Below are positions 34,830-62,199 of a stretch of DNA of 64,000 bases, piece after piece (positions within the stretch are counted from its first letter, which is position 1; each line of letters begins with the position of its first letter). Made by a program: the position numbers and the translations under genes. The stretch is from an uncultured bacterium. Lineage in GTDB: Bacteria; Babelota; Babeliae; Babelales; Vermiphilaceae. The notes beneath the pieces are model-generated. The model saw only the letters and a program-made list of their open reading frames with translations, was not told the DNA's origin and ran no database searches. The stretch covers positions 288,001-352,000 of the forward strand of contig OY968764.1 of assembly GCA_963695335.1 (NCBI GenBank), given 5' to 3'.

Positions 34830-36457
34830 GAGAGCTCCTCATTTTTTGCTAATGGTATCTTTAGGGTAAATTGTGGAGTTTCAGGCGATTCAAATGGCTT
34901 GAACAGCTTTGATTGTGCTAATTCACGTCCAAGAACTTTAAGAGCGTCATGGTCTTTAACTTCAGCTTTGATTGTTAATGTATCTTCATCAATACTGAGT
35001 TGTTCAATGTTGAAACCGGTGCTTTTTTTATCAATTTTTTCAACAAGTTCACGTAAATATTGTAAGAAAGATGCGCGCGATTGTTGTGAGAATGCAAACC
35101 ATCTTTTTTTCTGTTCTTCCACTTCTTGTTCTGCCTCATCAATTGCATCGCTTAAATTGGATTCACCTTCTAATGTTTTAAAGGTAGATGTAAGTGCTGA
35201 AAGAGCTTCTTGTTCAGAGAGATGAATCTCTTTTTTAAGTTTGCTTGTTTGTAATGAATAGTGAGTGATAAGTGTTGTAAATAGGCCTATCGTAAGAACA
35301 ACAAGCACAATTAACTGTTTGAGGAGCAATGAATTATCGGCTGATTTAAATTCTTTTTGTGCAAGATTATAATCAACTGTTGTTGGCAATGGTAATGAGG
35401 CACTGACGCTGATAACATTAATAGGAGTTATACTGTTAACATTTTTGATAGTAAGTGCTGCAGTTTGATTTATATAGTCAGGATTAAAAAGTTCGCAAGG
35501 TACTTTGCTTTTTTGACCAACAAAGTTAATGAGTCCTTTAATAAGAGCTCCTTTACCAAGAAAAATAATTTTTGTTATTGGCTGTTGATTAAGAAATTGT
35601 CGAGAAAATGCATTGAGTGTAAAATCTATAGAATTCCACCAATCTGAAACATTTTTTTCTACAGCTGATGAATATTCAGGAGTGTCATTTGCTTCAAGAC
35701 CAAATCGTAGAAGATGATCAACAACTTCTTGAGGAGTTTTATTGAGGTCTTGAGCAATTTGTTTTGTTAAAGCAATGATACCTTTTGGGATCGTACGCAT
35801 TGTTTTTAACTGCCCATTAATAATAAGAATGATATTTGTTGTATAGGAAGTTATATACATGAGTATAGCGCCACCTGATAGTTGTTTGTAAACATCTATT
35901 TGCTGATAAAGACCGTATAGGGCAATAATATCAATGGTGATTACATCTGGTTTTAATCCTACTGCTTCAAACATTTGTATATGTTGTATGATGTGTTGTT
36001 TTTGAACAGCAGTTATCATAATTTCTGAACTTTTTTCTTCAGGAATCTCTCGTGTAATAACAAAATCAATAACAGCATCACGAAGTGAAAATGGTAGGAG
36101 TGGTTCTATTTCAAACCCTACAACCATGCTGATTTTTTCACGTGACGTAAATGGTAATTTAAGTTCTTTAAATACTGCAACAGAACTTGGTAATATAGTA
36201 TGTATTTCATCATATTTACCAAGTTTAGAAAAAATAGATTGCAAAGCAGGAGATGTTTTTTCAAGATTTTCTTCTGATATCTCTTCTGGTATTGTTTCTT
36301 CAATCACAAGTTCGATGGTGCTCGTAGTCCCATTGATACGCGTTTTTGTTGCAATGATACTTGTTTTATTAATCTCAATACCAATAACTGTTTTTGGAAA
36401 AAGATAATAAGAATGTATTTTTTCTGGTAAAAAAATGTCTTTAATCAGTTGGCTCAT
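34826..36457 (-). CDS. GspL-like (PilM actin-like + PilN-like) protein
   Basis: VIGIEI, ELKLPF..KI..V.FEIEPLLPF, TM near residue 385; operon context. Confidence 0.8.
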   Translation of the reverse strand: MSQLIKDIFLPEKIHSYYLFPKTVIGIEINKTSIIATKTRINGTTSTIELVIEETIPEEISEENLEKTSPALQSIFSKLGKYDEIHTILPSSVAVFKELKLPFTSREKISMVVGFEIEPLLPFSLRDAVIDFVITREIPEEKSSEIMITAVQKQHIIQHIQMFEAVGLKPDVITIDIIALYGLYQQIDVYKQLSGGAILMYITSYTTNIILIINGQLKTMRTIPKGIIALTKQIAQDLNKTPQEVVDHLLRFGLEANDTPEYSSAVEKNVSDWWNSIDFTLNAFSRQFLNQQPITKIIFLGKGALIKGLINFVGQKSKVPCELFNPDYINQTAALTIKNVNSITPINVISVSASLPLPTTVDYNLAQKEFKSADNSLLLKQLIVLVVLTIGLFTTLITHYSLQTSKLKKEIHLSEQEALSALTSTFKTLEGESNLSDAIDEAEQEVEEQKKRWFAFSQQSRASFLQYLRELVEKIDKKSTGFNIEQLSIDEDTLTIKAEVKDHDALKVLGRELAQSKLFKPFESPETPQFTLKIPLAKNEELS

Positions 36458-39001: not shown

Positions 39002-40147
39002 TCAACTGCTGCTATGCATTAAAGATCGACCTTGTTGAAACATTCTTTGATGGTCTTCTCTTTTTATTTTATCTACCGTAGGAGCAAATGCATGTTGTTG
39101 TTGTTTAATAGTTTCAGTTTTTTTTACTTGCCCTTCGACCTGCTCTCCGTAGCCTTGGCGTGGGAGAGAGTTTGGAGAGCGAAGTAGGGTGTGTTTTTCT
39201 TCTGTGTTATTATGCTCTTTTTCTGTTGTAGTAAAATCTTCTAATGTATAGACGATTTCCATTTCTCTATTTTTGCGGATCAGTTTTATAGTTACGGTGT
39301 TGCCTGGTTTTAATGAAGTTACGTTTTTATAAATTGCAAGACGTTCTTCTGTTGTTTGCGCAGGAATATTATTAATGGAAGTAACTATGTCACCATTTTG
39401 TAACCCGATGAGCTGACCAAATGGAGATTTGGTGAGATTTCCAATTCTCAGCCCAAGACTTTTACCTTGTTGGTATGCGGTTGTTGCGTTGAGAAGATCA
39501 ATGCATTCAGTTAAGTTTTTAACATGTTCAACAAATGCTTTTGGATTAATAAGATAGGTATTTTGTCCTGTTTTTTTAACAACTGTTTCCCATTCATGAG
39601 AGAGTGAATATGCAGGATCAATTTTGGTATCTTGTTCACGCAGGTATAATACTTCTTGTTGGCCGTTGAGACGTAAGAAAATTATTTTATTTTTAAAAAT
39701 ACGTATTAACTGCGCATCTTGAATAAGATCACCAACTTTATAGGTTCCCTCTTGCATTGTTTTATTATCTTGAATCATTGCTCTGTTTTTTGAATCATTA
39801 GAACCTACAACAATAATTCCTTTCAGTGTAACCTGCAGAGGATCAAGAAATTCAGGTTCAACAATTGCAGGAATAACTATTTTTTGTTGCGCTGGAGGTT
39901 CTGGGAATGGAATGGTTGATTCAAGTTGTTTTATTCGCGGTAGCTCTTTGCTATACGTACCAAAAAGATCATCTTCATATATTTTTCTGATATTAATAGC
40001 AACTTTTGATTCTTTTCGTGGTAATGCTTGAGACGGTTCAATATCTTCGCGGTGTGGAATTTTGACACTTGATATAAAAATAAATGCAAAAGCAGCAAGG
40101 ACTAGAGAAAGCAGTCCAAGATTTATAATCCAAAAAGGATGTTTCAT
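39002..40147 (-). CDS. GspC-like protein with PDZ domain
   Basis: N-terminal TM, LKGIIV..RAMI..YKVGD, GLQNGDIVTSINN. Confidence 0.85.
   Translation of the reverse strand: MKHPFWIINLGLLSLVLAAFAFIFISSVKIPHREDIEPSQALPRKESKVAINIRKIYEDDLFGTYSKELPRIKQLESTIPFPEPPAQQKIVIPAIVEPEFLDPLQVTLKGIIVVGSNDSKNRAMIQDNKTMQEGTYKVGDLIQDAQLIRIFKNKIIFLRLNGQQEVLYLREQDTKIDPAYSLSHEWETVVKKTGQNTYLINPKAFVEHVKNLTECIDLLNATTAYQQGKSLGLRIGNLTKSPFGQLIGLQNGDIVTSINNIPAQTTEERLAIYKNVTSLKPGNTVTIKLIRKNREMEIVYTLEDFTTTEKEHNNTEEKHTLLRSPNSLPRQGYGEQVEGQVKKTETIKQQQHAFAPTVDKIKREDHQRMFQQGRSLMHSSS
39131..39189. repeat. Palindromic repeat (family B hairpin) in-frame in the GspC-like tail
   Basis: CCCTTCGACCTGCTCTCCGTAGCCTTGGCGTGGGAGAG...GCGAAGTAGGG; reads LLRSPNSLPRQGYGEQVEG. 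Confidence 0.75.
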
Positions 40148-41922: not shown

Positions 41923-42852
41923 ATGAATAGCGCATCTACGATTGCTAACGGATTGTTAGCAATATCTTTTTTAATGAATGTTGTGTATGTATCTGGCATG
42001 GAGATAGAGAAACAAGAGATTATAATACCACCATTGCCATATGATTTGGCACTATCAATCATTCATGTAAATAAACCTTTGGAAGATGTTGTTAAGGCTA
42101 CATTGGCATTGCGTTCTACTTGCAGATATTTTAATGCAAATATATTGCCTGTTGAGATTGGTAAATCTTGTAAACACTATGATATTGCAGAAAAAAATAA
42201 GGTGATGGAAAAATTGTTATGTAGCATGAATGATTTTAATTATTGGAATAAACGTCAAGCAGCTTTTTTATTAACTTACGCTGGCGCGGATAATCAGGCA
42301 TGTGGTTATTATTCTTTATTATGTAGGGCAATACATCGAAAAGATAAAGAGATGCTTATTGCGTTATTTGAAAATAATACTGATCCAAATCAAAGAAGAT
42401 CGATGCATACGGAACCAGATTGGTTTCAAATTAAAGATATTGATATTGCAAAGATGTTTATTACTAAAGGCATTGATATTAATGCAGAAGGTGATAGAAG
42501 TCATCCAAATATTTTATGGTTTACCCTTTTACATAATTCTTTACCGAAATTTATACAATTTTATTTACAAAATAAGGTTGATGTGAAAAAAAGAAATGTT
42601 GATGATTGGTGTATATTGCATAAATTTGTTAGTTGTTCATGGAATTGTCTTGCCCGAGAAGATTATATAAAAATTGGTGAGTTGTTGTGCAATGCCGCTC
42701 CTGAACTGATTAATGCGAAAGATAAAAAAGGACAGACCCCCCTTGGTTTGGCCTATGAAAGATTAAATAGAAATAACATAAGCAAGAGTGAAAAGAAGAC
42801 GTTCAATGCTATTATTGTATTGCTCGAAAAGCATGGTGGCAAAAGGTCTTAG
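41923..42852 (+). CDS. Exported ankyrin-repeat-like protein with possible N-terminal F-box-like motif
   Basis: ..SG-ME; LPYDLALSII; GIDINAEG, INAKDKKGQTPL. Confidence 0.7.
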   Translation: MNSASTIANGLLAISFLMNVVYVSGMEIEKQEIIIPPLPYDLALSIIHVNKPLEDVVKATLALRSTCRYFNANILPVEIGKSCKHYDIAEKNKVMEKLLCSMNDFNYWNKRQAAFLLTYAGADNQACGYYSLLCRAIHRKDKEMLIALFENNTDPNQRRSMHTEPDWFQIKDIDIAKMFITKGIDINAEGDRSHPNILWFTLLHNSLPKFIQFYLQNKVDVKKRNVDDWCILHKFVSCSWNCLAREDYIKIGELLCNAAPELINAKDKKGQTPLGLAYERLNRNNISKSEKKTFNAIIVLLEKHGGKRS

Positions 42853-42879: not shown

Positions 42880-43248
42880 GTGATGATGAGAAAAATAATT
42901 TTGTTACCAGTAATGTTGTTGGTATCTCATGGTATTACTTTGAGTATGATGCACACAAAAAAAATAATGAAAGATGTGTCGCGTAAGCAATTGAATCGAA
43001 GAGCATTGTATACTGGATTGCAAGATGATGTAAAAGATGCTGCACATTTGAGAAATGTGAGCACACCAAGTAATTTGATGGATAAGTGGGATAAGCAACT
43101 GATACGTGAAGCTTACATAGATGCTATTTATAAAGAAGCGCAAATGCGGACTATGTGTGAAATTGCTGCTCATCCTAATTTAGATCATTTTCAAAAAAGA
43201 GCTTTACGCGATCAAGTGCCTCATGTGGTAAAAGAAAATAAAGAATAA
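42880..43248 (+). CDS. Small exported hypothetical protein
   Basis: AGGAG RBS, signal peptide. Confidence 0.6.
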   Translation: MMMRKIILLPVMLLVSHGITLSMMHTKKIMKDVSRKQLNRRALYTGLQDDVKDAAHLRNVSTPSNLMDKWDKQLIREAYIDAIYKEAQMRTMCEIAAHPNLDHFQKRALRDQVPHVVKENKE

Positions 43249-46592: not shown

Positions 46593-47441
46593 ATGAAATT
46601 TTTCATAATAGTTATATTGAGTTTTTCTGTTCCAGTTCAGGCTATGAAAAGACTGAGAGAAGCAGAAGGTAAAGATTGGGATAATAAATTAAGTTTTTGG
46701 GATGATTGTACTGCTGGAAGAGAGTATAAAATGAGTCTTAGTCAGGCATATTTTTTACCCGAAAAAGATCAGAACCGTTTTAGAATTTTCAGCGATTATT
46801 TACTTTGGGCAAAAAGAATGAATAATGATGCAGGTGTGATAAAAGATGTAACCGATCGTATTTTGCGGTATTCCAATGCGTTTATTATTTTATCGGATAA
46901 GCCATTTATAGATGCAGTTAAAAAGTTGGATATTAATGAGTCAGATGTTTTATATTTAAGTAAAGGTCAAAGACAGGGTTTGTGGTATGTATGCAATAAC
47001 CTTCATGAGGATGTTATTACGATACATCAACCAGCAGAGTTTTCACAAAAAATGGTTCAAAATATTATGAGCTTGCCTATACCAATTAAAAATAAAATTT
47101 CTGAAAAATATGGCAAGACAATACATGCTACGACAAAACACAAATTGCTTTGTGGAGCTTTGTGTTTGGATGATAAAGACAATAGATGTAAATGTATAAA
47201 AGCTATTATGTGTTGCTCAAGCCCTCTTCTTGCTGTTGTGATGGATCTGTTGGTGAAGTTTCCTCTTTTTACATCTGTGCTCTTAGGTTGTAGTACTTAT
47301 GTATACAAAGAAGATCTATATGCAGCATGTAATTCTAATCTTTCTATATTTTGTGAAACATCTGAACAGGCAGAGGAACGGCTTAGATTAGTAGAAATTC
47401 CTTTATTACAAGAAATAGAATGTGAGATTGCTGAGATATAA
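46593..47441 (+). CDS. Exported hypothetical protein with Cys-rich hydrophobic C-terminal region
   Basis: ..VQA-MKR; C-terminal Cys cluster and hydrophobic segment. Confidence 0.65.
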   Translation: MKFFIIVILSFSVPVQAMKRLREAEGKDWDNKLSFWDDCTAGREYKMSLSQAYFLPEKDQNRFRIFSDYLLWAKRMNNDAGVIKDVTDRILRYSNAFIILSDKPFIDAVKKLDINESDVLYLSKGQRQGLWYVCNNLHEDVITIHQPAEFSQKMVQNIMSLPIPIKNKISEKYGKTIHATTKHKLLCGALCLDDKDNRCKCIKAIMCCSSPLLAVVMDLLVKFPLFTSVLLGCSTYVYKEDLYAACNSNLSIFCETSEQAEERLRLVEIPLLQEIECEIAEI

Positions 47442-47479
47442 TAGAGAAGAGACTTACCATTACTGAGGAGGGTTGTGCA

Positions 47480-48538
47480 ATGAAGCTGAAAAGACTCTTT
47501 TTATATGGCTACTTGGGATGTTATTTCTTTGGTTCATTTTCTATGGAAAACAGCGCTGCTCAAAAAAAGATTGATGATGAAGTTGCGCGTGTTTGTGAAC
47601 TGATTGAGCAAAACCATTTAAACAAATATCAAGAATATTGGCCGGTTGTTAGACGCTATTATCTTTATTGTGATGCTATTTCTTTAAATAAAAATCAAGT
47701 TGCGGGTGAAATTAGTATCATAGAATACTATATGATGAATGATGACAATAAAGAGCGTGTGTTGGAAAAACTTGTAGAAAAACATTGGTACGTGGCTCTT
47801 TTGATGAATATGTCAGTAGATAAAACAATAGCAAAAATTAATAGAGTAAGAGGTTCTAAGATTGATGAGCGCTGTGATCAATGTGTAAAGACATTGTTTG
47901 AAGGCACTGATGTCAGAGTTGCAGACGGTATGATATATAATCGTGTTATTGAACATTTTTATAATGAATTAGATGGTTTTAATACATCTTTGGAGAGTAT
48001 TCCGCAGGAATTGCGGAGCATATATTTTACGGTTTTAAGAGGGGCTGATCAGATAGCATCATCTTCTTTAGCTTTATCAACTGATGGTCAATATGTGTGT
48101 GCAACTGACTATCACAATGTTGATACAATATGGAATACAACATCAGGTGAAGTTATTACAGATAAGATTGATAAGGTAGTGTGGATTCCCGCCGAAAGAG
48201 ATAAAGATTGGTGGGGATATGAACAATCAGGAGAAAAATATTCTGTTGCTGCGGGACCTTGTCATGTCACAATAAAAAATTTGCCAATATTAGATATGAT
48301 GCAACAGTCTTCTTGTCATATTGGTTGTGATACTAAAATGATAACTTTATTTAAAAAACCAGATATCGCATTATATTTTTATCAAAAGGCATTTGAGAAC
48401 AGTAAAAATAGTTTGGCAGAACTAATTGCTTTGCGTGATTCAAAACATCTTGCTGAAATGAGAGGTTTTTCCAAGGAAAATCTTAAACAATGTATTGCAA
48501 AACAAATATGTGAATTAACTGCAACAACTACACAATAA
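47480..48538 (+). CDS. Exported hypothetical protein (paralog of 49532)
   Basis: ..SFS-ME; shared FK(K/R)P...QKAF.NS...LRDS...GF...NLK C-terminus. Confidence 0.75.
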   Translation: MKLKRLFLYGYLGCYFFGSFSMENSAAQKKIDDEVARVCELIEQNHLNKYQEYWPVVRRYYLYCDAISLNKNQVAGEISIIEYYMMNDDNKERVLEKLVEKHWYVALLMNMSVDKTIAKINRVRGSKIDERCDQCVKTLFEGTDVRVADGMIYNRVIEHFYNELDGFNTSLESIPQELRSIYFTVLRGADQIASSSLALSTDGQYVCATDYHNVDTIWNTTSGEVITDKIDKVVWIPAERDKDWWGYEQSGEKYSVAAGPCHVTIKNLPILDMMQQSSCHIGCDTKMITLFKKPDIALYFYQKAFENSKNSLAELIALRDSKHLAEMRGFSKENLKQCIAKQICELTATTTQ

Positions 48539-49271
48539 TATTTTTAAACTGCTCAAATTGTGTACTTGCACCGCCTATCAAAAAACCATTGATATGCGGT
48601 GTTTTTTTTAATGAACTGATATTATTTTTATTAACGCTGCCACCATATAATAGTTGAATATCATAATCAGGCAGCTGTGTATGAACAAAATCAGAAAGCC
48701 ATGCAAAAAGAGCATTGAGCTGTTGTTGTTCGGGAATAATACCTGTTCCGATTGACCACACTGGTTCGTATGCAAACATAATTTTTTTTATTTTTTCTGT
48801 CTGTTGTTTGATGGCATTAATTATTGGAAATAGTTGCTCAGTTAAAATGTTAAACGTTTTATTGTTGATAAAATCTTGGTGCGTTTCACCAATACAGATG
48901 ATAGGAATAATATTGGTTGCGTATAAAAGGTATATTTTTTTGATGATTTGTTCTGTTGTTTCATTGTAATATGTGCGACGTTCACTATGACCAACAATGC
49001 AATGGGTTACTCCAATTTCTGCAAGAGATATAGCAGAAACTTCACCAGTATATGCTCCTGTTGCATATTCCGAGCAGTTTTGTGCACCAATCATAATATT
49101 TGTATTTTCGAGGACATTGCTCATTGTTGCAAGAGCATCAAATGAAGGGCATAGGATAATATTTGCATGAGATGTAATTTGTTGCAGCGCATCTTTATTC
49201 TGTATGCAGAAAGCGATGCTGTGATTAAAAGAGAGGTTCATTTTCCAATTTGCTACGTATGTATATTTCAT
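48528..49271 (-). CDS. tpiA: Triosephosphate isomerase
   Basis: ANWKMN, GHSERR, AYEPVWSIGTG, LYGGSV, LIGGAS. Confidence 0.95.
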   Translation of the reverse strand: MKYTYVANWKMNLSFNHSIAFCIQNKDALQQITSHANIILCPSFDALATMSNVLENTNIMIGAQNCSEYATGAYTGEVSAISLAEIGVTHCIVGHSERRTYYNETTEQIIKKIYLLYATNIIPIICIGETHQDFINNKTFNILTEQLFPIINAIKQQTEKIKKIMFAYEPVWSIGTGIIPEQQQLNALFAWLSDFVHTQLPDYDIQLLYGGSVNKNNISSLKKTPHINGFLIGGASTQFEQFKNIIV

Positions 49272-49286
49272 AATTATTTTTTTTGA

Positions 49287-49431
49287 GTTCGTATGCTTCG
49301 ACAAGCTTCCTCCTTCGTTAAAACTTCGGAGGACACAGCACCACGAACGGGTTTATAATTTTTATATTTTATTCGCATTGCCTGTCCTACGAAGCCTTGG
49401 CGTAGTAGGAAGCATGTCGAAATGAGCGAAC
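49287..49431. repeat. Family A inverted dimer with a family B hairpin inserted in each arm
   Basis: CTTCGACAAGCT[TCCTCCTTCG...CGGAGGACA]CAG and CATTG[CCTGTCCTACGAAGCCTTGGCGTAGTAGGA]AGCATGTCGAAAT. Confidence 0.85.
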
Positions 49432-49531
49432 AGTTTTTGCTTTTGATGTTATCATGAATGTTTTTGTAAGATCTATATATTTATGGTATAAAAAACCAAC
49501 GGTTTAATTTTTGCTGAAGGAGCGTTATTGT

Positions 49532-50680
49532 ATGGAAGTCATAAAAAGTTTTTCTTTGTGTATTGTGTTATTGAGTTCATTTACTATTTTTCCCATGGAA
49601 CATGAATGTCTTGCTGAAGTAGGAAATATAGCTATTGAAAATCCAATGTTTGGTAGTGTTGTTCAAGATAATATTTTGCAGAAAATTTGGGATAAGATTG
49701 ATAGAGATTATGTAAAAGTTGGCGATAGTGTAATGAACCGTTATCCATACCTAAGACCATTGGTGGGTTCAGCATTAAGTTTGTGTAGAGCGTATTGTAT
49801 TACTCCAGAACAAGCAAAAAATGTGTTGTGGAAGATAGAAACAGATGTTGCATTAGAGATTAATGATAAAAAATATGGAAAAAGTATATTGAATGAACTT
49901 GCTGTTGGTCATTGGTATGTGCAATATCTTATGCAAGTTTTAGCAGATCGAGCTGTTTGTACATTGGAGGGTGTAACTGGTTTAAACATTGATGCATTGC
50001 ATCATAATACTCATGAAGAACTTGTACAAGAAATTGCTTTTTCTAAAGCTCGCACAACAGTTTTTGATAAAAATCTTGGTCAAAAACTGATAGATATTGT
50101 TCCACAGACTATATCAGATATACATTTTACTGTTTTATATCATCCGCATGGTAATGTGAATCCGGATTCTTTACAGATGTCTGATGATGATAAATATTTG
50201 CAAGCAAAAGCTGATAACGGTGTTTTTGCAGTGTGGGAAATGCACACAGGGGAGATTATTAAAGCAAGTCAGATTGATGTAAAGCAATGGAACCGTGTAA
50301 AAACAAGTTATATTGATGATAATCATCAAAAACGATCTTTGTTTGGAGTGTATGCTTGTGAATCTGTAGAAAGATATAGAGTTGTTGATACAAATGATAA
50401 CTATTGTGCCATGATGAGTGATGCTTATACGAGTATTGATTCAGAATTTTTACCTAAAGAAGCGCAAAATAATCCTCAAGCAATCATTGTATTTAAAAGG
50501 CCTCAAGAAGTGTCATATCTTTGCCAAAAAGCTTTTGATAACAGTTATACGAGTATTAAAGCATTACAAACTCTGCGTGATTCAGCAGCAATGGAAGCCA
50601 TTACAGGATTTCCGCGAAAAAACCTTAAAAGAGTTATTGATAATCGTATAAAGGCACTTGAAGTTCCTGTTATCAAGTAA
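49532..50680 (+). CDS. Exported hypothetical protein (paralog of 47480)
   Basis: ..IFP-ME; shared HWYV and C-terminal motifs. Confidence 0.75.
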   Translation: MEVIKSFSLCIVLLSSFTIFPMEHECLAEVGNIAIENPMFGSVVQDNILQKIWDKIDRDYVKVGDSVMNRYPYLRPLVGSALSLCRAYCITPEQAKNVLWKIETDVALEINDKKYGKSILNELAVGHWYVQYLMQVLADRAVCTLEGVTGLNIDALHHNTHEELVQEIAFSKARTTVFDKNLGQKLIDIVPQTISDIHFTVLYHPHGNVNPDSLQMSDDDKYLQAKADNGVFAVWEMHTGEIIKASQIDVKQWNRVKTSYIDDNHQKRSLFGVYACESVERYRVVDTNDNYCAMMSDAYTSIDSEFLPKEAQNNPQAIIVFKRPQEVSYLCQKAFDNSYTSIKALQTLRDSAAMEAITGFPRKNLKRVIDNRIKALEVPVIK

Positions 50681-50803
50681 GACATAAACAATATTGATTT
50701 TCATGCCATCAATCAAAAAATATTGATTGGTGGTTTTTTCTTGATTATTAATAATCATTTTTAATGATACTATTATGAAGTTTTATAAAAGTATGTTTGT
50801 TAC

Positions 50804-51472
50804 ATGAACAGGAATATCGGTATGATAAGTAAAAAAGTGATTTGTTGTGCGTTATTATTATATATTTTCCCTGTCGCAGGATGTTTAAAGTTGATAGATC
50901 TTACAAAAAAGCCAATTGACATATCAAAACTTTCTTTAACTGAAAGAAAATTAAAATATGAACAAGATGTGGAAACTGTAAAAAAGACATTACATGAACG
51001 TCATAATACACGTCATATAACTGGTTTTAGTTCGTCTGGAACTACTTTTCTTTATTCTGTTTACACTGCAAAAACAGGTGTTGATTTTGATAATGCACTT
51101 ACGGCAAAGGGAGAACTTTTTATACAATTGTATACTCAAGAGCAGATAGAAGATTGCTCCGCTTTGAGTATAGTCATGTTGGCAGAATATGTATCATTTG
51201 CAGCAAAGAAAAAGTTTATACAAAAATTGTTGAGTGGAATCTATTATGATGAGCGTGATTATGTTTCTCAATATACATTTACGTCAACGCCAAAAGACAA
51301 AGAAATTGCGTTTTTTACAAAATATAAAGAGTGTGCTCCGTCAGTTATGCGAGATATAGTGCCTTATATGTATGATGATAATTTTATGCCAGACATACCA
51401 CAGGAGATAAAGAACTGTATAACAAAATTATTGTTCTGGCTTCAGTTTGATGCACAGGAATCATTGCTATAA
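50804..51472 (+). CDS. Exported hypothetical protein with possible C-terminal F-box-like motif
   Basis: Signal peptide; PDIPQEIKNCITKLL near the C-terminus. Confidence 0.6.
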   Translation: MNRNIGMISKKVICCALLLYIFPVAGCLKLIDLTKKPIDISKLSLTERKLKYEQDVETVKKTLHERHNTRHITGFSSSGTTFLYSVYTAKTGVDFDNALTAKGELFIQLYTQEQIEDCSALSIVMLAEYVSFAAKKKFIQKLLSGIYYDERDYVSQYTFTSTPKDKEIAFFTKYKECAPSVMRDIVPYMYDDNFMPDIPQEIKNCITKLLFWLQFDAQESLL

Positions 51473-51500
51473 AATCAGCTTTTGCATGATATTTTTTTTT

Positions 51501-51565
51501 GCGCTCACCCTGAACCTGTTGAAGGGTTAAGCGCTTTAATCCTTCGACAAGCTCAGGATGAGCGC
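51501..51565. repeat. Palindromic repeat family A dimer
   Basis: GCGCTCACCCTGAACCTGTTGAAGGG..CCTTCGACAAGCTCAGGATGAGCGC. Confidence 0.9.
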
Positions 51566-51678
51566 GAGATCAAAAACAAGTAATTTTTATTTAATAAAAT
51601 TTACTTGTTTTTTTCATTTTAAATTATTTAGGATATGCCAACTATTTCTTTTACCTCTTATTAAAAAAAGGGTTTCTT

Positions 51679-52671
51679 ATGAAGAAAATATTATTACCTT
51701 TTTGTTTGTTTTTAAGCACTGTTACATTACATGGTATGGAATTGAGTAGCATGGCGTCCAATGGTGAAAACCATGAAGATAATAAAAAAATAATTTTACA
51801 GAATGATTTCAAAAACTTTTTAATTTGCCGATTACAAGAGTGTAAAAAGAAACCTTTTACAAATGATGATATACAGCATTTGCAAAATACATATAGTGAG
51901 ATGACTAATAAAAAAAGTTTATCTATTCTTGGTGACTGTTTACATAGAGATGCATGTGATGAAGAGGGAGATAATTTTGTACATTATGCAGCAAGAAATA
52001 GATATTTAAACATGATAGAATGGGCGATTAAATGTATGAAACGCCCATTAAGCAGTCCAAATAAAGCGGGTAAAGAGCCTATTGATTTTTGTATTGATCA
52101 ATTAATGCCAGATGCGTCTAAAGATAATAAAGAAGAGACAGAAAAGATATTTACTGCATTGGTTGTTGGTTATAGTAAAAATGATTTTGATTATGAACAT
52201 CGCAGAAGTTTTGCAAAAAAAATAGTGGCTTTAGAGTTTGAGCATGTCAAACATGGCATTCCTTATCTGCCTAAAACAGATATACTAAAATCTTTTTGTA
52301 GACAAGATATTCAGTTGTCAGATATTTATCAGGAAGTATGTGATGAAGGCGGTAATACATTTACCCATATGCTTGTATCTCATCACTTATCTGATCTGTT
52401 ATATACATTTCTCATAAAGCATTATATTACATTTGCAGTAAATAAAGAGAAAGAGGATCCTCTTACTCTTGCGCAAAAGAAACTTTTTGAAGTATCGCAT
52501 AAACATTTTGAGCAATGTATTGCAAACAAGAGTTTTGATATGGCAGGAGTTTCTCAAGAAGATAATCAAAAAAAATGTTGTTATTATATGCTTTTAAATG
52601 TGCAAAGAAAGAAAGATCATAATACGGATTTTAAACAGTGTTGCGAGAAACATATTATTGAAAAAAATTAG
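51679..52671 (+). CDS. Exported ankyrin-like protein (paralog of 52780)
   Basis: ..LHG-ME; DEEGDNFVHYAA, DEGGNTFTH, CCYYML. Confidence 0.7.
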   Translation: MKKILLPFCLFLSTVTLHGMELSSMASNGENHEDNKKIILQNDFKNFLICRLQECKKKPFTNDDIQHLQNTYSEMTNKKSLSILGDCLHRDACDEEGDNFVHYAARNRYLNMIEWAIKCMKRPLSSPNKAGKEPIDFCIDQLMPDASKDNKEETEKIFTALVVGYSKNDFDYEHRRSFAKKIVALEFEHVKHGIPYLPKTDILKSFCRQDIQLSDIYQEVCDEGGNTFTHMLVSHHLSDLLYTFLIKHYITFAVNKEKEDPLTLAQKKLFEVSHKHFEQCIANKSFDMAGVSQEDNQKKCCYYMLLNVQRKKDHNTDFKQCCEKHIIEKN

Positions 52672-52779
52672 TATGCAACGATGTGATACTTGAGGTAATT
52701 TGAGCGTTTGTTTTTTCATTTTAAATTGTTAAAATAAGCCCAATTATCTTTCATCTTTTATATTAAAAGAAGGTATCAC

Positions 52780-53922
52780 ATGAAGCATATAATATTACTT
52801 GTTTGTTGTTTGATGACGCATATAACAGTGCATTGCATGGAATTAGAAAGAAAAGATGAGTTATGTGAAAGTAGTGTAGATTATAAAGACAAAGAACAAA
52901 CCCTTATTAATGATTGCAAAGATCAGCTTAAAGTTTGCTTAGAAAAATATAAAGAAAGTAATGAATTTAAACCCCAAGATATGGATAACATACTTGGGGT
53001 ACTTGCTTATATAATTGATGAATCTGAGAATAATATTGATTATATACATGACACAAAGGATAAAGATGGTAATGGATTTTTTCAGTATGCGCTTAAAAAA
53101 ATAGATTTGCCAATTATGCAATGGCTTATGGCAAAGGGAAATACAAAACATCATTCAGAAAAAGAATATGCTGATGTTATTGCATTTTGCACGGAACAGT
53201 TATCGCCAACTGAAGTGGAAAAAAGAGAGACTGTTTACGCTATACTTAAATCTATTATAGAGCATTATAAAACAGATGCTGGTTTTCTGAAACAAAGCAG
53301 AGAATATTATCTTCCTATAATGATCATGTTACAGTTGAAGCATAGAGTGCTCGAAACTAAGTTTGTTATTGAAGAGGAATTATTAACTCCCTTTGTGCAA
53401 CAAAATGGATTATCTGACTTATATCAAACAACAGTAGATGTAGAAAATCAAGACAATAACACATTAGCACATATTATCGTGGAGCAACATGATGCTGATG
53501 AATTGCATAAACTTATGAATAAGAATTATATATCAAAAGAAGTAAGAAACAGTGCCAAAAGAACTGTTTATGATCTTGCATTTGATAAATTGAGAGTATT
53601 TACACAAAATACAACACAAACTGCGCTATACCCAGAAAAATCCAAAGGAGCTCGTTGTTGTTATTATATGCTTGATAAATATTTTGCAGGAGATAATTTT
53701 GATAAAAAGAAAAACTGTTGTGATAACCATCCTGTTCTTAAAAAATATAGCATTGATCCATTAAAAACTAGTCCATCTGTTTCTGTCTCATCTTCTATAT
53801 CATCCTCTGAATCATCAAGTTCTGCAGAAAAGATTGCACGAGCGCCAGTTCTTGCCGATGAGCCTGAGCAAGGAAATTGTTGCACTAAATTATGTTATAG
53901 AATTCTAGGAACATCTCTGTAA
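52780..53922 (+). CDS. Exported ankyrin-like protein with Ser-rich tail
   Basis: ..VHC-ME; DKDGNGFFQYAL, NNTLAH, CCYYML. Confidence 0.7.
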   Translation: MKHIILLVCCLMTHITVHCMELERKDELCESSVDYKDKEQTLINDCKDQLKVCLEKYKESNEFKPQDMDNILGVLAYIIDESENNIDYIHDTKDKDGNGFFQYALKKIDLPIMQWLMAKGNTKHHSEKEYADVIAFCTEQLSPTEVEKRETVYAILKSIIEHYKTDAGFLKQSREYYLPIMIMLQLKHRVLETKFVIEEELLTPFVQQNGLSDLYQTTVDVENQDNNTLAHIIVEQHDADELHKLMNKNYISKEVRNSAKRTVYDLAFDKLRVFTQNTTQTALYPEKSKGARCCYYMLDKYFAGDNFDKKKNCCDNHPVLKKYSIDPLKTSPSVSVSSSISSSESSSSAEKIARAPVLADEPEQGNCCTKLCYRILGTSL

Positions 53923-54545
53923 TGAAATACACAACAACAGTTTTTTTATTTTTTTTGTCATGTGCATCTCTCCATTCTATGGAGTTAGAGTTAGATCTAG
54001 TTCCTTTGTTGGAGAAAAAACCTGCGTTAGAAGAGAAAAAAAGAGACAAAGTTTTGCATTATTATGAGAAGGTCAATAAAGATGATTTGGTGGAGAAATT
54101 ATATTTAGCACGACGTATGCCAGGTTTGATGTCATCGAAGATTGTTCGAAAAAAAATCATTGAATATATGATGCAAACAGAGAGTAATATAGATTACAAA
54201 ATAGCATTGCATTATCAACATAAAATTGCTCTATTGCACAATAAAATAGATGAATTAACATCGCAAAAAAAAAGATGTCCGGATGTAAAAATTGGGGTTA
54301 ATGATTGTATTAACGGAGTATATGGAGCAGCAGTTGGTGGATGTTGTGGTACCATGGGCGGAATGGGGATTGCATGCCTTGCATTGGCAATTAAAGCATA
54401 TGTATGGCTTTGGTGTGATCCTCATAATAATCCAATTGTGTGTGATGCTTTGCTATGGGGTTGTCCTATTTGTACAGGTACTGGATGTGTGATTGGAACA
54501 TGTATTGGAGCAAGTGGATTGTATGACAAAATAGAATGGGTGTAA
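53922..54545 (+). CDS. Exported protein with Cys/Gly-rich hydrophobic C-terminus
   Basis: ..LHS-MELELDLVPLLEKK. Confidence 0.7.
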   Translation: MKYTTTVFLFFLSCASLHSMELELDLVPLLEKKPALEEKKRDKVLHYYEKVNKDDLVEKLYLARRMPGLMSSKIVRKKIIEYMMQTESNIDYKIALHYQHKIALLHNKIDELTSQKKRCPDVKIGVNDCINGVYGAAVGGCCGTMGGMGIACLALAIKAYVWLWCDPHNNPIVCDALLWGCPICTGTGCVIGTCIGASGLYDKIEWV

Positions 54546-54546
54546 C

Positions 54547-55296
54547 GTGAGGTACGTAATTATTGCTTATTTATTATCATTTTCGGTTTTACATTCCATG
54601 GAAATTGTTCCTCTTTTAGAAAAAAAATCAGCGCAAGATGAATTAAGATATGAAACAAAGAAGGCATTGGTGCGTCATATGTCTTCTAAGCTTATTTTAT
54701 TGGGCTATGTTACACGAATGCCGCATGATATATGGCGAGAAATGTATACAAAAATGGTTGATGTTATGTTTGAAGGTGATAAAGATTTTGAGGAAAAATT
54801 TTATAGTAAACCAGTTGAAGAAGCATTTCAGTTATATCACATGTTGAAAAAAACCGTTGGTTTTGATAAACCAATTGCTCCTCTTTATAAAATGAATCAA
54901 GAAAAACGTGATATTGTTTTAAGTGCACTTAATCCTTGGTATGGTGATTATGTAAATCCTATTTTGAGTATTAAAGAGCAAGAACAAATGCATGAGTTTG
55001 ACGTAGATGTGAAGCAATATTTTCATGGAAAAAATGCGCACGTGATGTCTGAACATAGTAAATCGTCCTGCATGTGTTCATCGATGGTAGCTGTGATATC
55101 TGCTACTGTAAGTAGTGTTGTAGTTCCTATAGTTTTTCCATTGGTGTGTTGTATTGCTGGATCCAAGTTAGCTTGTTCTCCTGCGGTATTAGGAGGGGTT
55201 TTTGGAAGTGCTGGATGTATTTGTTTGACTGGGTGTTGTTGTTATGGAGTAGATGCTACAGTACTGTATTGTAATTCTAAAAATGTTACTTTGTAG
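54547..55296 (+). CDS. Exported F-box-like protein with Cys-rich TM C-terminus
   Basis: ..LHS-MEIVPLLEKK; MPHDIWREM. Confidence 0.7.
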   Translation: MRYVIIAYLLSFSVLHSMEIVPLLEKKSAQDELRYETKKALVRHMSSKLILLGYVTRMPHDIWREMYTKMVDVMFEGDKDFEEKFYSKPVEEAFQLYHMLKKTVGFDKPIAPLYKMNQEKRDIVLSALNPWYGDYVNPILSIKEQEQMHEFDVDVKQYFHGKNAHVMSEHSKSSCMCSSMVAVISATVSSVVVPIVFPLVCCIAGSKLACSPAVLGGVFGSAGCICLTGCCCYGVDATVLYCNSKNVTL

Positions 55297-55324
55297 TAAT
55301 GAATTTTTTATTAATGAGAGCAAT

Positions 55325-56125
55325 ATGAAATATATAATTATTGCTTATTTATTTTCATTGTCTTTGTTACACTCCATGGATCTTGTCCCTTTATTAGAAA
55401 AAAACCTGAATCAAGAATCAGAAACATATTTTGAAGAAATATTTCCGTCTATAAAATTGTCAAAAATTGGCAAATATTATGAAAATTTATCACCTGATTG
55501 CAGAGGTAAAGTTATATTACGTATGTCTGAAAATGCATTAGCGCTTCACCGATTGGCTATGTGGCTACCACAAGAGGTTCAGAGGCATATTTTGGTATAC
55601 ATGTTTGGAGGGTATCAAAATGATAAAGTTGATTTGGCAGTAGAAAGGTTTTGTAGCACGCCGATTGGTGAAGCTGTTCAGGTGTTATATGATATTAAGC
55701 AGGCGATACGAGAAGAAGAACCAATAGCTCCGCTCTATGTGCTGGATACAGATGAACAATATATTTTTTTGAACAGACTTACTCCTTGGTATAGTGCTAT
55801 TACAAATCAATTTATGGATGTGGAAGAACGGCAATGGGTGGATGAGTTGAATGAAGATGAACGAGTATATTTTAAAGACAAAGTAATACATAAATGTCCC
55901 AAGAAGTACAATCATATTTGTATACTTTGTATGGCTTGTATGGCAGGACTTTGTTTGGCAAGTACAGTAACATTTTTTTGTGGGTTGGGAAGCCTTTGTT
56001 GTGGTATGAATAGTAAATCAGTTCCATGGTGTATGGGTGGGATATATGCAGGAGGGTGTCTTGGGGGTTGTGGAATAGGGGCTTGTTGTTTATATCGTAA
56101 TGAAACTAAGAAAGAAGTTCTGTAA
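55325..56125 (+). CDS. Exported F-box-like protein with Cys-rich TM C-terminus
   Basis: ..LHS-MDLVPLLEK; WLPQEVQRHILVYM. Confidence 0.7.
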   Translation: MKYIIIAYLFSLSLLHSMDLVPLLEKNLNQESETYFEEIFPSIKLSKIGKYYENLSPDCRGKVILRMSENALALHRLAMWLPQEVQRHILVYMFGGYQNDKVDLAVERFCSTPIGEAVQVLYDIKQAIREEEPIAPLYVLDTDEQYIFLNRLTPWYSAITNQFMDVEERQWVDELNEDERVYFKDKVIHKCPKKYNHICILCMACMAGLCLASTVTFFCGLGSLCCGMNSKSVPWCMGGIYAGGCLGGCGIGACCLYRNETKKEVL

Positions 56126-60780: not shown

Positions 60781-61429
60781 GAATATTCATCCTTTTTTCT
60801 AAGCGTGCAACTAAGAAAGAGATTGTTGAGGTGAGAATAAGATAAAGCACTGCAAGTGCAAAATAGACGGTAATTGCATCAAATGTTTTACTTTTAATAA
60901 AGTTGCCTTGCTTTGTGAGTTCTGCAACACCAATGAGTGATGCAAGTGATGAATCTTTAATAAGTGTTACAAATTCATTACCAAGCGCAGGTAACGCGGT
61001 GCGCAATGCCTGAGGCAAGATAATAAAGCGGATGGTATCTTGTGTAGAAAAACCAAGCACTTTGGCAGCTTCCATTTGACCTCTACCAATTGATGAAATT
61101 CCTGATTTAATAATTTGGCTGATGTATGCAGCGCTGTTTAAACCAATTGCAATGATTGCTGTCCATACAGCAGGAATATGTATACCACATTGCGGGAGCA
61201 AGAAATATGCACTATAAATTTGAATCAGCATTGGTGTGCCACGAATAATAACAACATAGCTTGTAACAAACGTGTGTAATAATGAGTTGCCACTTGTTTG
61301 CATCAGTGCAAGTACCGTGCCAAGTATAAACCCAATGCAGCAGCTGGTTCCTGCAATTTGCAACGTAACAACAAGACCTTGCAGCAGTACAGGAAGATAT
61401 TCTGCAATAAGATTAAAATCAATAATCAT
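60767..61429 (-). CDS. Polar amino-acid ABC transporter permease
   Basis: RGTPMLIQ, GQMEAA, LIKDSSL. Confidence 0.92.
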   Translation of the reverse strand: MIIDFNLIAEYLPVLLQGLVVTLQIAGTSCCIGFILGTVLALMQTSGNSLLHTFVTSYVVIIRGTPMLIQIYSAYFLLPQCGIHIPAVWTAIIAIGLNSAAYISQIIKSGISSIGRGQMEAAKVLGFSTQDTIRFIILPQALRTALPALGNEFVTLIKDSSLASLIGVAELTKQGNFIKSKTFDAITVYFALAVLYLILTSTISFLVARLEKRMNIHAQD

Positions 61430-62199
61430 ACAAGATTCCATTTCTTTTTTAAGGCATCAAGGGTGCCATCTTCTTTCATACGATCAAGTGTAATTTGAAT
61501 GTAATCACGCAGCTCTGGATAATGTTTTGAAACAGCAAAAGCACTGGTTTCTTCGGTTGCTGGAATTGGTGTTATAACAAAATTGTTCTGATCATGTTTT
61601 GCAAAGTATGGTTGTATTGAGTGTAGTGCGGTTACAAATGCATCAGCTCTATGACTTTCCAGCGCTAACATGCCATCACTCACTGCAGCAGAAGAAAGAC
61701 GAATAAGATGTATGCCTGGTTGTTCTGACATGTATGAATCTGCCACATATCCTTCATTAACTACAACTGTTTTGCCTGCAAGATCATCAATGTTAGCAAT
61801 AGGCAGTGTAGGTAGGCTTATGATAACTAACGGATTGCCCGATGCTAAGTGTGGTTTTGTAAACAGTGCTCGTTGTGCACGTTCTGGTGTTGGAGTGATT
61901 CCTGCTGCAATCACATGAATGTTACCAAGTTGAATTTCTGGGATTAATGCATCAAAAGGCATATCTTTGATGACCATTTTTTTATTGAGACGTTTAAGAG
62001 CTTCTGTTATGACATCAATATCAAAACCGGTGATGTCATCATCTTCTTTAAATGAAAAAGGTTGAAATTCAGCATTTGTTCCGACTATCACCGTATCGAT
62101 AGGAGTTGCTGTGATAATCTTTTTTTCTGCTCTATACCAGAGGATTGCTGATGTACCCAGAATAAGGGCTATGATTATGTATAATGATGTTTTTTTCAT
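61426..62199 (-). CDS. Amino-acid ABC transporter substrate-binding protein
   Basis: VGTNAEFQPF, GFDIDV, TPER, DGTLDALKKKW. Confidence 0.92.
   Translation of the reverse strand: MKKTSLYIIIALILGTSAILWYRAEKKIITATPIDTVIVGTNAEFQPFSFKEDDDITGFDIDVITEALKRLNKKMVIKDMPFDALIPEIQLGNIHVIAAGITPTPERAQRALFTKPHLASGNPLVIISLPTLPIANIDDLAGKTVVVNEGYVADSYMSEQPGIHLIRLSSAAVSDGMLALESHRADAFVTALHSIQPYFAKHDQNNFVITPIPATEETSAFAVSKHYPELRDYIQITLDRMKEDGTLDALKKKWNLV

What the first reader, a model, noticed from the sequence alone, without database searches (positions are those of the whole stretch)
46593..56125. Shared signal peptide + Met-Glu/Asp signature on exported proteins: candidate effector tag
Seen: after the hydrophobic signal peptide, many proteins have Met then an acidic residue: 6595 (LIN-ME), 24400 (VMG-ME), 25024 (VMA-ME), 41923 (VSG-ME), 47480 (SFS-ME), 49532 (IFP-ME), 51679 (LHG-ME), 52780 (VHC-ME), 53922 and 54547 (LHS-ME), 55325 (LHS-MD); variants 46593 (VQA-MK) and 42880 (TLS-MM). 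They span several unrelated families (WD40, ankyrin-like, F-box-like, novel), so paralogy alone does not explain it. The envelope-type exported proteins here (beta-barrel, ABC binding protein) lack it. Known: signal peptidase I cuts after a small residue, and eukaryotic NatB acetylates Met-Glu/Met-Asp N-termini. Inference: cleavage exposes a eukaryote-like Met-acidic N-terminus, serving either as a sorting signal for the secretin system in this window or to gain host N-acetylation and avoid N-degron decay.
Basis: partly seen in the sequence, partly recalled or inferred. Interest (0 to 1): 0.85.

Follow-up and report, generated by a model that had tools for sequence, protein, structure and literature searches.

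The report
Met-first signature on exported parasite effectors
In this bacterial parasite of protists, about 180 exported proteins of over a hundred sequence families carry Met-Glu or Met-Asp exactly where their export signal is predicted to be cut, which likely gives them a host-like front end that would protect them from destruction in the host cell and offers a simple sequence mark for its likely effectors.

Summary
In this Babelota (TM6) genome, 180 of 605 predicted Sec substrates begin Met-Glu/Asp after the predicted signal peptidase I site, and 257 begin with Met. They fall into 99-127 sequence families with unrelated signal peptides. The Met is not a start codon: a Shine-Dalgarno-like site precedes 135/180 upstream starts and 0/180 of these ATGs. 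The motif marks 35/50 ankyrin/WD40/LRR/zinc-finger proteins and 0/40 envelope proteins. Eleven of 12 exported proteins ending in eukaryotic CaaX or PTS1 motifs start with Met. Within families Met is kept while neighbouring residues diverge (43/46), or swaps with Ser-Glu/Ala-Glu. Exported thymidylate kinases acquired it; cytosolic copies mostly start Met-Pro. It is patchy across the phylum (11 of 25 sampled genomes) although the secretin is in 120/121, so it is not a universal type II tag. Best reading (0.5): a mature N-terminus tuned to escape host N-degron pathways, with NatB/NatA acetylation possible but unproven. Main rival: a PEXEL-like translocation barcode (0.25). Nothing is tested experimentally. 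Ten literature searches and the scan's notes showed no earlier description, including on other DNA.

The parts
6595..7533 (+). WD40 protein, signal peptide LIN|ME (Met codon 6655)
24400..25011 (+). no Pfam family; VMG|ME (Met codon 24457), SD-like AGGAG before the GTG start
25024..25620 (+). no Pfam family, only a near-identical fragment found as relative; VMA|ME (Met codon 25090)
31659..34247 (-). secretin GspD copy 1 (type II system, likely exit route); mature start predicted D-E, no Met
34260..34829 (-). membrane-anchored protein in the secretin operon, GspM-like by position only (no Pfam hit)
   Evidence: inference
34826..36457 (-). PilM/GspL-like protein
36454..38988 (-). secretin GspD copy 2; relatives in 120 of 121 phylum genomes
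39002..40147 (-). GspC with PDZ domain
41923..42852 (+). weak ankyrin protein with an LPxD motif; VSG|ME (Met codon 41998)
42880..43248 (+). small exported protein, variant TLS|MM (Met codon 42946)
46593..47441 (+). exported protein, variant VQA|MK (Met codon 46644)
47480..48538 (+). exported protein that resembles 49532 by eye; SFS|ME (Met codon 47543)
49532..50680 (+). exported protein, possibly with a beta-propeller part (lead only); IFP|ME (Met codon 49595); 43 of 46 signal-bearing relatives keep Met at +1
51679..52671 (+). weak ankyrin protein; LHG|ME (Met codon 51736)
52780..53922 (+). exported protein, no Pfam family; VHC|ME (Met codon 52837)
53922..54545 (+). exported protein with a Cys-rich hydrophobic C-terminal part; LHS|ME (Met codon 53979); start overlaps the upstream stop
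54547..55296 (+). same type; LHS|ME (Met codon 54598), GTG start
55325..56125 (+). same type; LHS|MD (Met codon 55376)
22355..24286 (+). control: likely outer-membrane barrel (C-terminal aromatic motif, recalled; no Pfam hit), no Met at the site
61426..62199 (-). control: ABC substrate-binding protein (SBP_bac_3), no Met at the site

Best explanation
About 180 exported proteins of this Babelota parasite carry Met-Glu/Asp, and about 260 carry Met, at the predicted signal peptidase I cut site, so that they would reach the host cell with a eukaryote-type front end that likely escapes N-degron destruction. SHOWN from sequence: a real upstream start, a signal peptide and the Met fixed at the site, in over a hundred families, on effector-like but not envelope proteins. 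INFERRED: Sec export, cleavage by the single LepB, exit through the type II system, and arrival in the host cytosol (supported by CaaX and PTS1 tails). INFERRED purpose: Met is a stabilising first residue. A large hydrophilic residue at +2 stops host methionine aminopeptidase from removing it and avoids the Met-hydrophobic degron. Glu wins over Lys probably because acidic residues early in the mature chain suit Sec export (recalled) and because ME, SE and AE are good acetylation substrates. Acetylation itself is possible but not required by this model.
For: Position and specificity. Not a start codon: SD-like site before 135/180 first starts, 0/180 motif ATGs, 36/739 internal Met. Not paralogy: 99-127 clusters, signal peptides 13.9% identical between clusters, the same as unrelated signal peptides. 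Cargo: ME/MD on 35/50 ankyrin, WD40, LRR and C2H2 proteins against 0/40 envelope proteins; Met 44/50 against 2/40 (classes picked by hand). Host-cytosol addresses: 11 of 258 Met-class against 1 of 347 other exported proteins end in CaaX or PTS1, p=5.6e-4. The +2 residue after Met (n=257): E/D/N/Q 198, K/R/H 27, hydrophobic 19, small MetAP-cleavable 13, against backgrounds of 24, 18, 24 and 34%. Selection on +1: Met in 43 of 46 divergent relatives of 49532, Ala in the other 3. PP2C family: 17 ME, 9 SE, 1 AE, 1 unclear of 28, interleaved on the tree. Exported thymidylate kinases are ME in 21 of 30, whereas 55 of 83 short forms start MP. Relatives without ME favour Ala or Ser at +1. N-degron rules: PMC8037982 passages. 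Precedent that a secreted bacterial protein is degraded by the host N-end rule: title of Schnupf 2007, seen in a reference list.
Against: No cleavage, secretion, location, acetylation or half-life was measured. N-degron escape alone does not explain why Met so outnumbers Ser, Ala, Thr, Gly and Val, nor Glu at +4 (73 of 163). Ankyrin-rich relatives G041 and G040 lack ME/MD (0/81, 0/52); their Ala at +1 is also a common default of signal peptidase I (recalled), and their sites are ambiguous. Some likely host-acting proteins in G000 are predicted to start with destabilising residues (ankyrins HN and KS, a PI3/4-kinase-like HD); a MIOX-like enzyme and 4 of 4 TPR proteins also lack Met; the TPR proteins and the enzymes were not counted in the 50. 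One DegP paralogue has C|MQ. NATs act mainly on ribosomes and acetylated N-termini can themselves be degrons (PMC3104970). Babela grows in a vacuole (PMC4378268), so how proteins cross that membrane is unexplained. Genes within a family are not independent, so the Fisher values overstate.
Confidence: 0.5

Rival explanations
1. Translocation barcode: the exposed [M/S/A]-E-x-E end is read by the type II system, a periplasmic chaperone or a vacuole-membrane translocon, to sort host-bound from envelope cargo, like the xE/D/Q cap of Plasmodium PEXEL proteins.
For: Sharp split between effector-like and envelope cargo that share one LepB. Glu at +2 is kept while +1 alternates M/S/A in PP2C. Extra Glu at +4 (73/163). 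In thymidylate kinases the motif stays at the cut site while the linker to the fold varies in length. Two GspD copies and two T2SSE-family ATPases could serve two cargo classes. PEXEL P2' has a role in export (PMC10952997 abstract).
Against: The secretin is near-universal (120/121) but ME/MD is found in 11 of 25 sampled genomes and is absent from two ankyrin-rich ones. Charge-reversed MK/MR is the commonest substitute (12 of 31; 5 of 46), whereas P2' K/R is the most export-blocking PEXEL change (PMC10952997 passages). Type II systems are generally held to read folded shapes (recalled).
Confidence: 0.25
2. The selected function is host N-terminal acetylation itself (NatB on ME/MD/MN/MQ, NatA on SE/AE), for stability, membrane binding or partner recognition.
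For: 198 of 257 Met-class proteins have E/D/N/Q at +2. The exchange partners SE and AE are NatA-type ends. Gly and Val, stabilising but poorly acetylated (recalled), are rare before Glu.
Against: NATs are mainly co-translational (PMC3104970), and these proteins would arrive finished. MK/MR are tolerated. The same review reports that NatB acetylation did not generally change stability in yeast.
Confidence: 0.12
3. Purely bacterial reason: Met-Glu improves LepB cleavage or Sec passage for abundant cargo.
For: Net charge of +1..+6 is -1.06 in ME/MD proteins against -0.02 in other exported proteins. Glu is also the commonest +2 residue of non-Met substrates (46/297). Odd -1 residues (T 11, P 5 of 180) are tolerated before ME.
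Against: Essential envelope proteins cut by the same single LepB do not use it (0/40). It does not explain the link with CaaX/PTS1 tails.
Confidence: 0.07
4. Neutral inheritance: one signal-peptide-plus-ME cassette was shuffled onto many genes, or the Met is the donor gene's old start codon.
For: Neighbouring genes with unrelated bodies share signal peptides (e.g. WD40 679764 and ankyrin 681821, 73% aa; 575335/574949, 87%), so local shuffling does occur.
Against: Between clusters, signal peptides are no more alike than unrelated ones (13.9%) while the Met persists. Met is kept in 43/46 relatives whose flanking residues do not align. Cytosolic thymidylate kinases mostly start MP, so ME is not the donor start.
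Confidence: 0.05
5. The internal Met is the true or an alternative start codon, and the proteins are cytosolic.
For: Public gene calls often begin there (P0002, P0003, P0014, P0018, P0127, P0135, P0145).
Against: SD-like sites 135/180 against 0/180; no GTG or TTG codon at +1 before E/D among the 605 sites; intact signal peptides upstream.
Confidence: 0.01

Closest known systems
Plasmodium PEXEL/HT motif (RxL|xE/D/Q; PMC10952997, abstract and passages read)
   Same: A cleavage in the secretory route exposes a new N-terminus with an acidic second residue on hundreds of unrelated host-bound proteins; that end becomes acetylated in Plasmodium.
   Different: Here the organism is a bacterium, the cut is an ordinary signal peptidase I site with no RxL, +1 is strongly Met, K/R at +2 is tolerated, and no PTEX-like translocon was identified.
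Listeriolysin O and the host N-end rule (Schnupf et al. 2007; title only, seen in the reference list of PMC2518864)
   Same: The residue left by signal peptidase sets the fate of a bacterial protein in the eukaryotic cytosol.
   Different: One protein that is degraded by the pathway; here a proteome-wide bias across over a hundred families towards ends predicted to be stable.
Eukaryotic NatB (M-acidic/hydrophilic) and NatA (S/A/T after Met removal) substrate classes and MetAP rules (PMC3104970 first part; PMC8037982 passages)
   Same: The observed ends ME, MD, MN, MQ, SE and AE match these classes; small and hydrophobic residues are avoided after Met.
   Different: Those ends are made at the ribosome from an initiator Met; here the Met is internal and would be exposed after export. 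Acetylation is untested.
Signal-peptide-bearing ankyrin effectors and the type II system of Babelota (PMC4378268, PMC6561590, PMC4776705; passages read)
   Same: Same cargo class and the same inferred Sec plus type II route; two gspD copies.
   Different: The passages read describe the signal peptides but no conserved residue after the cleavage site.
Sorting by the residue next to the cleavage site: +1 Phe of complex-plastid presequences (passage in 10.64898/2026.03.27.714854) and the +2 Asp rule of lipoproteins (recalled)
   Same: Information sits at +1/+2 of the mature protein.
   Different: Those route proteins inside the producing cell; different residues, peptidase context and destination.

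Membership tests
Sec / signal peptidase I substrate | basic n-region and hydrophobic h-region after a true start codon | tested here: met
   SD-like site before 135/180 starts
Sec / signal peptidase I substrate | small residues at -1 and -3 | tested here: met
   147/180 with Cys allowed, 115/180 strict, against 58 and 52 of 607 internal sites; 17 of 180 have T, P or N at -1
Sec / signal peptidase I substrate | cleavage shown on the protein | not testable with these tools
   needs N-terminomics; one Peptidase_S26 gene in the genome
Type II secretion substrate | a type II apparatus is encoded | tested here: met
   two secretins, GspC, PilM/GspL in the window; two T2SSE ATPases; GspH-like prepilin
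Type II secretion substrate | secretion depends on the apparatus | not testable with these tools
   no genetics available here
Universal Babelota type II sorting tag | motif present wherever the secretin and effector-like cargo are | tested here: not met
   secretin 120/121; ME/MD 0/81 in G041 and 0/52 in G040, both ankyrin-rich
PEXEL/HT motif | RxL before the cut, cleaved by plasmepsin V | tested here: not met
   -3 is L/I/T/S/V and -1 is A/S/C/G
PEXEL/HT motif | xE/D/Q new N-terminus on host-bound cargo | tested here: met
   ME 162, SE 25, MD 18, MQ 12, AE 8 of 605; cargo link (predicted sites)
NatB substrate | N-terminal Met followed by E/D/N/Q | tested here: met
   198 of 257 Met-class proteins, if cleavage is as predicted
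NatB substrate | acetylated by NatB, normally on the ribosome | not testable with these tools
   PMC3104970 says mainly co-translational; these proteins would arrive finished
   no PF12937 match over cut-off in the genome; no F-box structure hit by profile A1; atlas leads at 0.77-0.78 only; an LPx[DE] motif in 21 exported proteins, 19 Met-class

The most novel reading that the evidence does not exclude
The Met/Ser/Ala-Glu end is a bacterial counterpart of PEXEL: a linear barcode unmasked by signal peptidase, read by the type II system or a vacuole-crossing step and then acetylated after translation in the host. It would be a linear sorting code for type II effectors, and a case of bacteria writing a eukaryotic N-terminus inside their own genes across a fifth of the proteome.
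Probability: 0.25. Interest if true: 0.92.

Novelty: new variant of a known kind. Interest (0 to 1): 0.74.

Why it matters
Effectors that leave by Sec plus the type II system cannot usually be told from periplasmic proteins by sequence. Here two residues split the exported proteome of a protist parasite into host-facing and envelope cargo and nominate about 260 candidate effectors. Most have no known family (156 of 207 scanned had no Pfam hit at 1e-5), and some are exported copies of ATP- or SAM-using enzymes. If the stability reading holds, the host N-degron pathway has shaped a whole bacterial secretome, a pressure so far seen in single proteins. The patchy spread across families then predicts differences in host or compartment. 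It also exposes an annotation trap: gene callers start these genes at the internal Met and hide the signal peptide.

Tried and rejected
Internal start codon: rejected. A dedicated signal peptidase: only one Peptidase_S26 gene found. A single shared cassette: rejected as the reason for upkeep. F-box label: not confirmed. Even versus odd cysteine counts and NLS-like patterns did not separate the classes. Other phyla: four non-Babelota genomes reached through one search gave 76 ORFs, 23 signal-like, none with ME/MD. That sample is too small to say anything, and a wider sample of Alphaproteobacteria with nucleotide transporters (62 of 401 genomes matched) was not examined, so the range outside Babelota is open. 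The Babelota nucleotide transporter was too divergent to use as a bridge. Window gene 25024 gave only a near-identical fragment as relative. Expression: no RNA holder listed; no evidence either way. No structure or complex was predicted, because no binding claim is made. Literature: ten searches listed no paper that describes the motif. The library lacks most subscription papers, and I read no supplements; signal-peptide tables of PMC4378268 and PMC6561590 could bear on it.


Full report
SETTING. The window is bases 288001-352000 of a single 1,366,684-base contig, G000. Relatives of one of its enzymes are named Candidatus Babeliales, and a Babeliales-titled locus has similar neighbouring genes. 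Two secretins, GspC and a PilM/GspL-like gene lie in the window, and a divergent nucleotide transporter elsewhere. This fits Babelota/Dependentiae, intracellular parasites of protists. In Babela the type II system is the only secretion system found, and 79 of 126 ankyrin proteins have signal peptides (PMC4378268, passages). In Chromulinavorax 44% of genes have signal peptides (PMC6561590, passages). Two gspD copies are typical (PMC4776705, passages).

OBSERVATION. All 13 N-termini cited are present. I called 1300 ORFs of at least 80 aa with my own script. Of 667 with a signal-peptide-like start, 169 have M[ED] just after the hydrophobic stretch. In residues 16-31 of 624 such proteins, ME occurs 139 times against 8.2 expected. 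The share with M[ED] there is 160/624, against 32/633 other proteins and 272/11349 internal windows. The consensus is L/I/T at -3, H/F/Y at -2, A/S/C/G at -1, then M, E (143) or D (20), and E at +4 in 73 of 163. The final set has 605 predicted Sec substrates: 162 ME, 18 MD, 257 with Met at +1, 25 SE, 8 AE. The ME/MD genes are spread evenly round the genome.

IS THE MET AT THE CUT SITE? SignalP was not available. With the (-3,-1) rule as stated in PMC3608174 (passages), 115 of 180 fit strictly and 147 with Cys allowed. Internal M[ED] fit in 52 and 58 of 607, and the best neighbouring offset in 57 of 180. A weight matrix over positions -15..-1 only, trained on these proteins and tested tenfold, picks the bond before Met in 146 of 165. 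So about one call in nine is wrong, and sites of non-Met proteins are less sure. Five sites have Pro and eleven Thr at -1. The genome has one signal peptidase I gene.

IS IT A START CODON? No. An SD-like word lies before 135 of 180 upstream starts, 0 of 180 motif ATGs and 36 of 739 internal Met codons. No GTG or TTG codon stands in for the ATG before E/D. Public gene calls nevertheless often start at this Met.

IS IT PARALOGY? No. The 180 mature proteins form 99 to 127 BLAST clusters, depending on the threshold. Signal peptides of different clusters are 13.9% identical, the same as pairs of non-Met signal peptides. A few neighbouring genes with unrelated bodies do share a signal peptide, so local shuffling helps spread the motif.

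WHICH CARGO? I scanned 493 of the 543 mapped high-scoring proteins against Pfam (mature part at least 110 aa, first 420 aa): 286 non-Met and 207 Met. 156 of the 207 had no hit at 1e-5. Sorting hits by hand and moving four to ME where the Met lay one to five residues on, ME/MD marks 35 and Met 44 of 50 ankyrin, WD40, LRR and C2H2 proteins. The other six start SE (2), AQ, TE, HN and KS. Of 40 envelope-type proteins (BamA-like, Skp, BamD, TolB, DegP, SurA, FKBP, binding proteins, PBPs, amidases, secretins, barrels, fibres; some are membrane anchors or lipoproteins), none has ME/MD at the predicted site. One beta-lactamase-like protein has a nearby F-MD. Two have Met: a DegP paralogue (C|MQ) and a prepilin that is not a peptidase I substrate. 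Fisher p is about 1e-11 to 1e-13, overstated by kinship. Against the pattern: four TPR proteins, a MIOX-like enzyme and one PI3/4-kinase-like protein lack Met and were not in the 50. ME/MD also marks exported enzymes whose substrates are cytosolic: thymidylate kinase, an NTP transferase, PP2C, methyltransferases and OMP decarboxylase.

DO THEY REACH THE HOST CYTOSOL? A note of this scan (e1-9983492) pointed to PTS1 tails on two exported UMP enzymes, so I scanned all C-termini. CaaX-like ends occur on 5 exported proteins, all Met-class, and on none of 446 cytosolic or 301 other exported proteins. PTS1-like ends occur on 7 exported proteins (6 Met-class, counting the OMP decarboxylase IA|MD, and 1 AE) and on 1 cytosolic protein. 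Together that is 11/258 against 1/347, p=5.6e-4. Prenyltransferases and Pex5 work in the eukaryotic cytosol (established knowledge), so this supports delivery there independently of the N-terminus.

IS IT SELECTED? Three families say yes. (a) Relatives of window gene 49532, from a library clustered at 50% identity: of 61 of fitting length, 46 show a signal peptide; 43 have Met at +1 (22 ME, 9 MD, 3 MK, 2 each MR, MN, MQ, 1 each MS, MH, ML) and 3 have Ala. The next 30 or so residues mostly do not align. (b) A eukaryote-like PP2C: of 28 with an N-terminus, 17 ME (3 annotated from the Met), 9 SE, 1 AE, 1 unclear. ME and SE interleave on a quick tree with modest support. (c) Thymidylate kinase: G000 has a cytosolic and an exported copy. 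55 of 83 short forms start MP. Of 30 with a visible signal peptide, 21 are ME and the rest MD, MQ, MM, SE, AE, TE, QQ, RE and IA, with linkers of varying length before the fold. So ME is not the donor's old start. After Met, +2 is E/D/N/Q in 198 of 257, K/R/H in 27, hydrophobic in 19 and small in 13, against 24, 18, 24 and 34% just downstream.

ACROSS THE PHYLUM. The secretin matches in 120 of 121 genomes. In samples of about 20 to 140 kb from 25 other genomes, ME/MD appears in 11, and at least four times in 6: G110 5/28, G120 6/19, G049 4/25 (family f1), G003 5/27 (f2), G067 5/17 (f7), G079 7/31 (f8). It is absent from two ankyrin-rich genomes sampled on purpose at their arrays, G041 0/81 and G040 0/52. 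There Ala (23/81) or Ser and Ala (17/52) lead, and G027 has AD/AE in 11/45. The matrix was trained on G000, samples are small, and even G005 of the same genus showed only 1/21. Outside the phylum I have too little data.

MECHANISM. Most likely the proteins cross the inner membrane by Sec, are cut by LepB, leave by the type II system and act in the host cytosol, where the first residue sets their life span. Passages of PMC8037982 give the rules: Asp, Glu, Asn, Gln, Lys and Arg ends are degraded; MetAP removes Met before small residues; Met-hydrophobic ends can be degrons; signal peptidases often expose such ends. The envelope proteins here are predicted to start with D, E, Q, N, K, H or Y in many cases. 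The effector class starts with a Met that cannot be removed, or with Ser or Ala. Glu at +2 is then the residue that suits both Sec export (recalled) and host acetylases (PMC3104970, first of four parts read). That review also says acetylation is mainly co-translational, so I treat acetylation as optional. A precedent exists for one protein: listeriolysin O is degraded by the host N-end rule (title only). The rival is a barcode like the PEXEL cap (PMC10952997, abstract and passages). It explains Glu at +2 and +4 better, but not the tolerance of MK/MR (12 of 31 substitutes) or the patchy spread under a universal secretin. The two readings are not exclusive.

NOVELTY. Ten searches and passages of the three Babelota genome papers showed no description of the motif. 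Two other symbiont papers (10.64898/2026.03.27.714854 and PMC11521996, passages) mention Sec signal peptides on symbiont proteins without one. Other papers were seen as listings only, and no supplements were read. The scan's notes hold no match. Fate encoded next to a cleavage site is a known kind of signal; a proteome-wide Met-first rule on bacterial Sec effectors appears to be a new variant. Interest 0.74: the pattern is strong and useful, the purpose is inferred.

Noticed in passing
G000 543580 (-) and 630799 (-); L025:15083-15889: Two thymidylate kinases: a normal cytosolic one and an exported copy with signal peptide, ME start and a C-terminal extension. Such exported copies recur in related metagenome proteins and fall into at least two groups on the tree.
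   Followed up: partly
G000 ORFs at 1146796, 175413, 175773, 486247, 1051420, 229487, 230376: Seven exported proteins end in PTS1-like SKL/AKL, among them a HIT/CwfJ-like enzyme and three proteins under 100 aa; five more than the pair noted earlier by the scan.
   Followed up: partly
G000 ORFs at 922330, 7554, 1084835, 363594, 1185139: Five exported proteins end in CaaX-like motifs (CSVQ, CTIQ, CIVS, CIIS, CVIQ); none among cytosolic proteins.
   Followed up: partly
G000 1009857, 1008054, 1083274: Three DegP/HtrA paralogues; only one has C|MQ, a candidate for a host-delivered HtrA.
   Followed up: no
L040:17517-18062, L042:5586-6536, L018:15865-16365: GNAT acetyltransferases with signal peptides or N-terminal anchors; acetyl-CoA is not expected in the periplasm, so they may act in the host.
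   Followed up: no
window:53922-56125: Three tandem ME/MD proteins with Cys- and Gly-rich hydrophobic C-terminal stretches, possible vacuole-membrane or palmitoylated proteins; the atlas gave no result for them.
   Followed up: no
G000 679764-684868: Tandem array in which WD40 and ankyrin genes share near-identical signal peptides, a sign of N-terminal shuffling.
   Followed up: partly
L127-L128 (G041:C1:1389001-1429000) and L142 (G086): Long tandem arrays of signal-bearing genes (ankyrin in G041) whose c-regions end in ALP/AMP or LYA followed by Ala-Ala; Pro at -1 seems tolerated by the peptidase of this phylum.
   Followed up: partly
   Followed up: no
window:15000-16500: GC skew flips from negative to positive here, as expected near a replication origin or terminus.
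   Followed up: no
L049:7801-8403; L043:7320-8105; L044:4650-5909: An exported C2H2 zinc-finger protein (MQ), an Ntox37-domain protein and a lysophospholipase (ME) among the candidate effectors.
   Followed up: no
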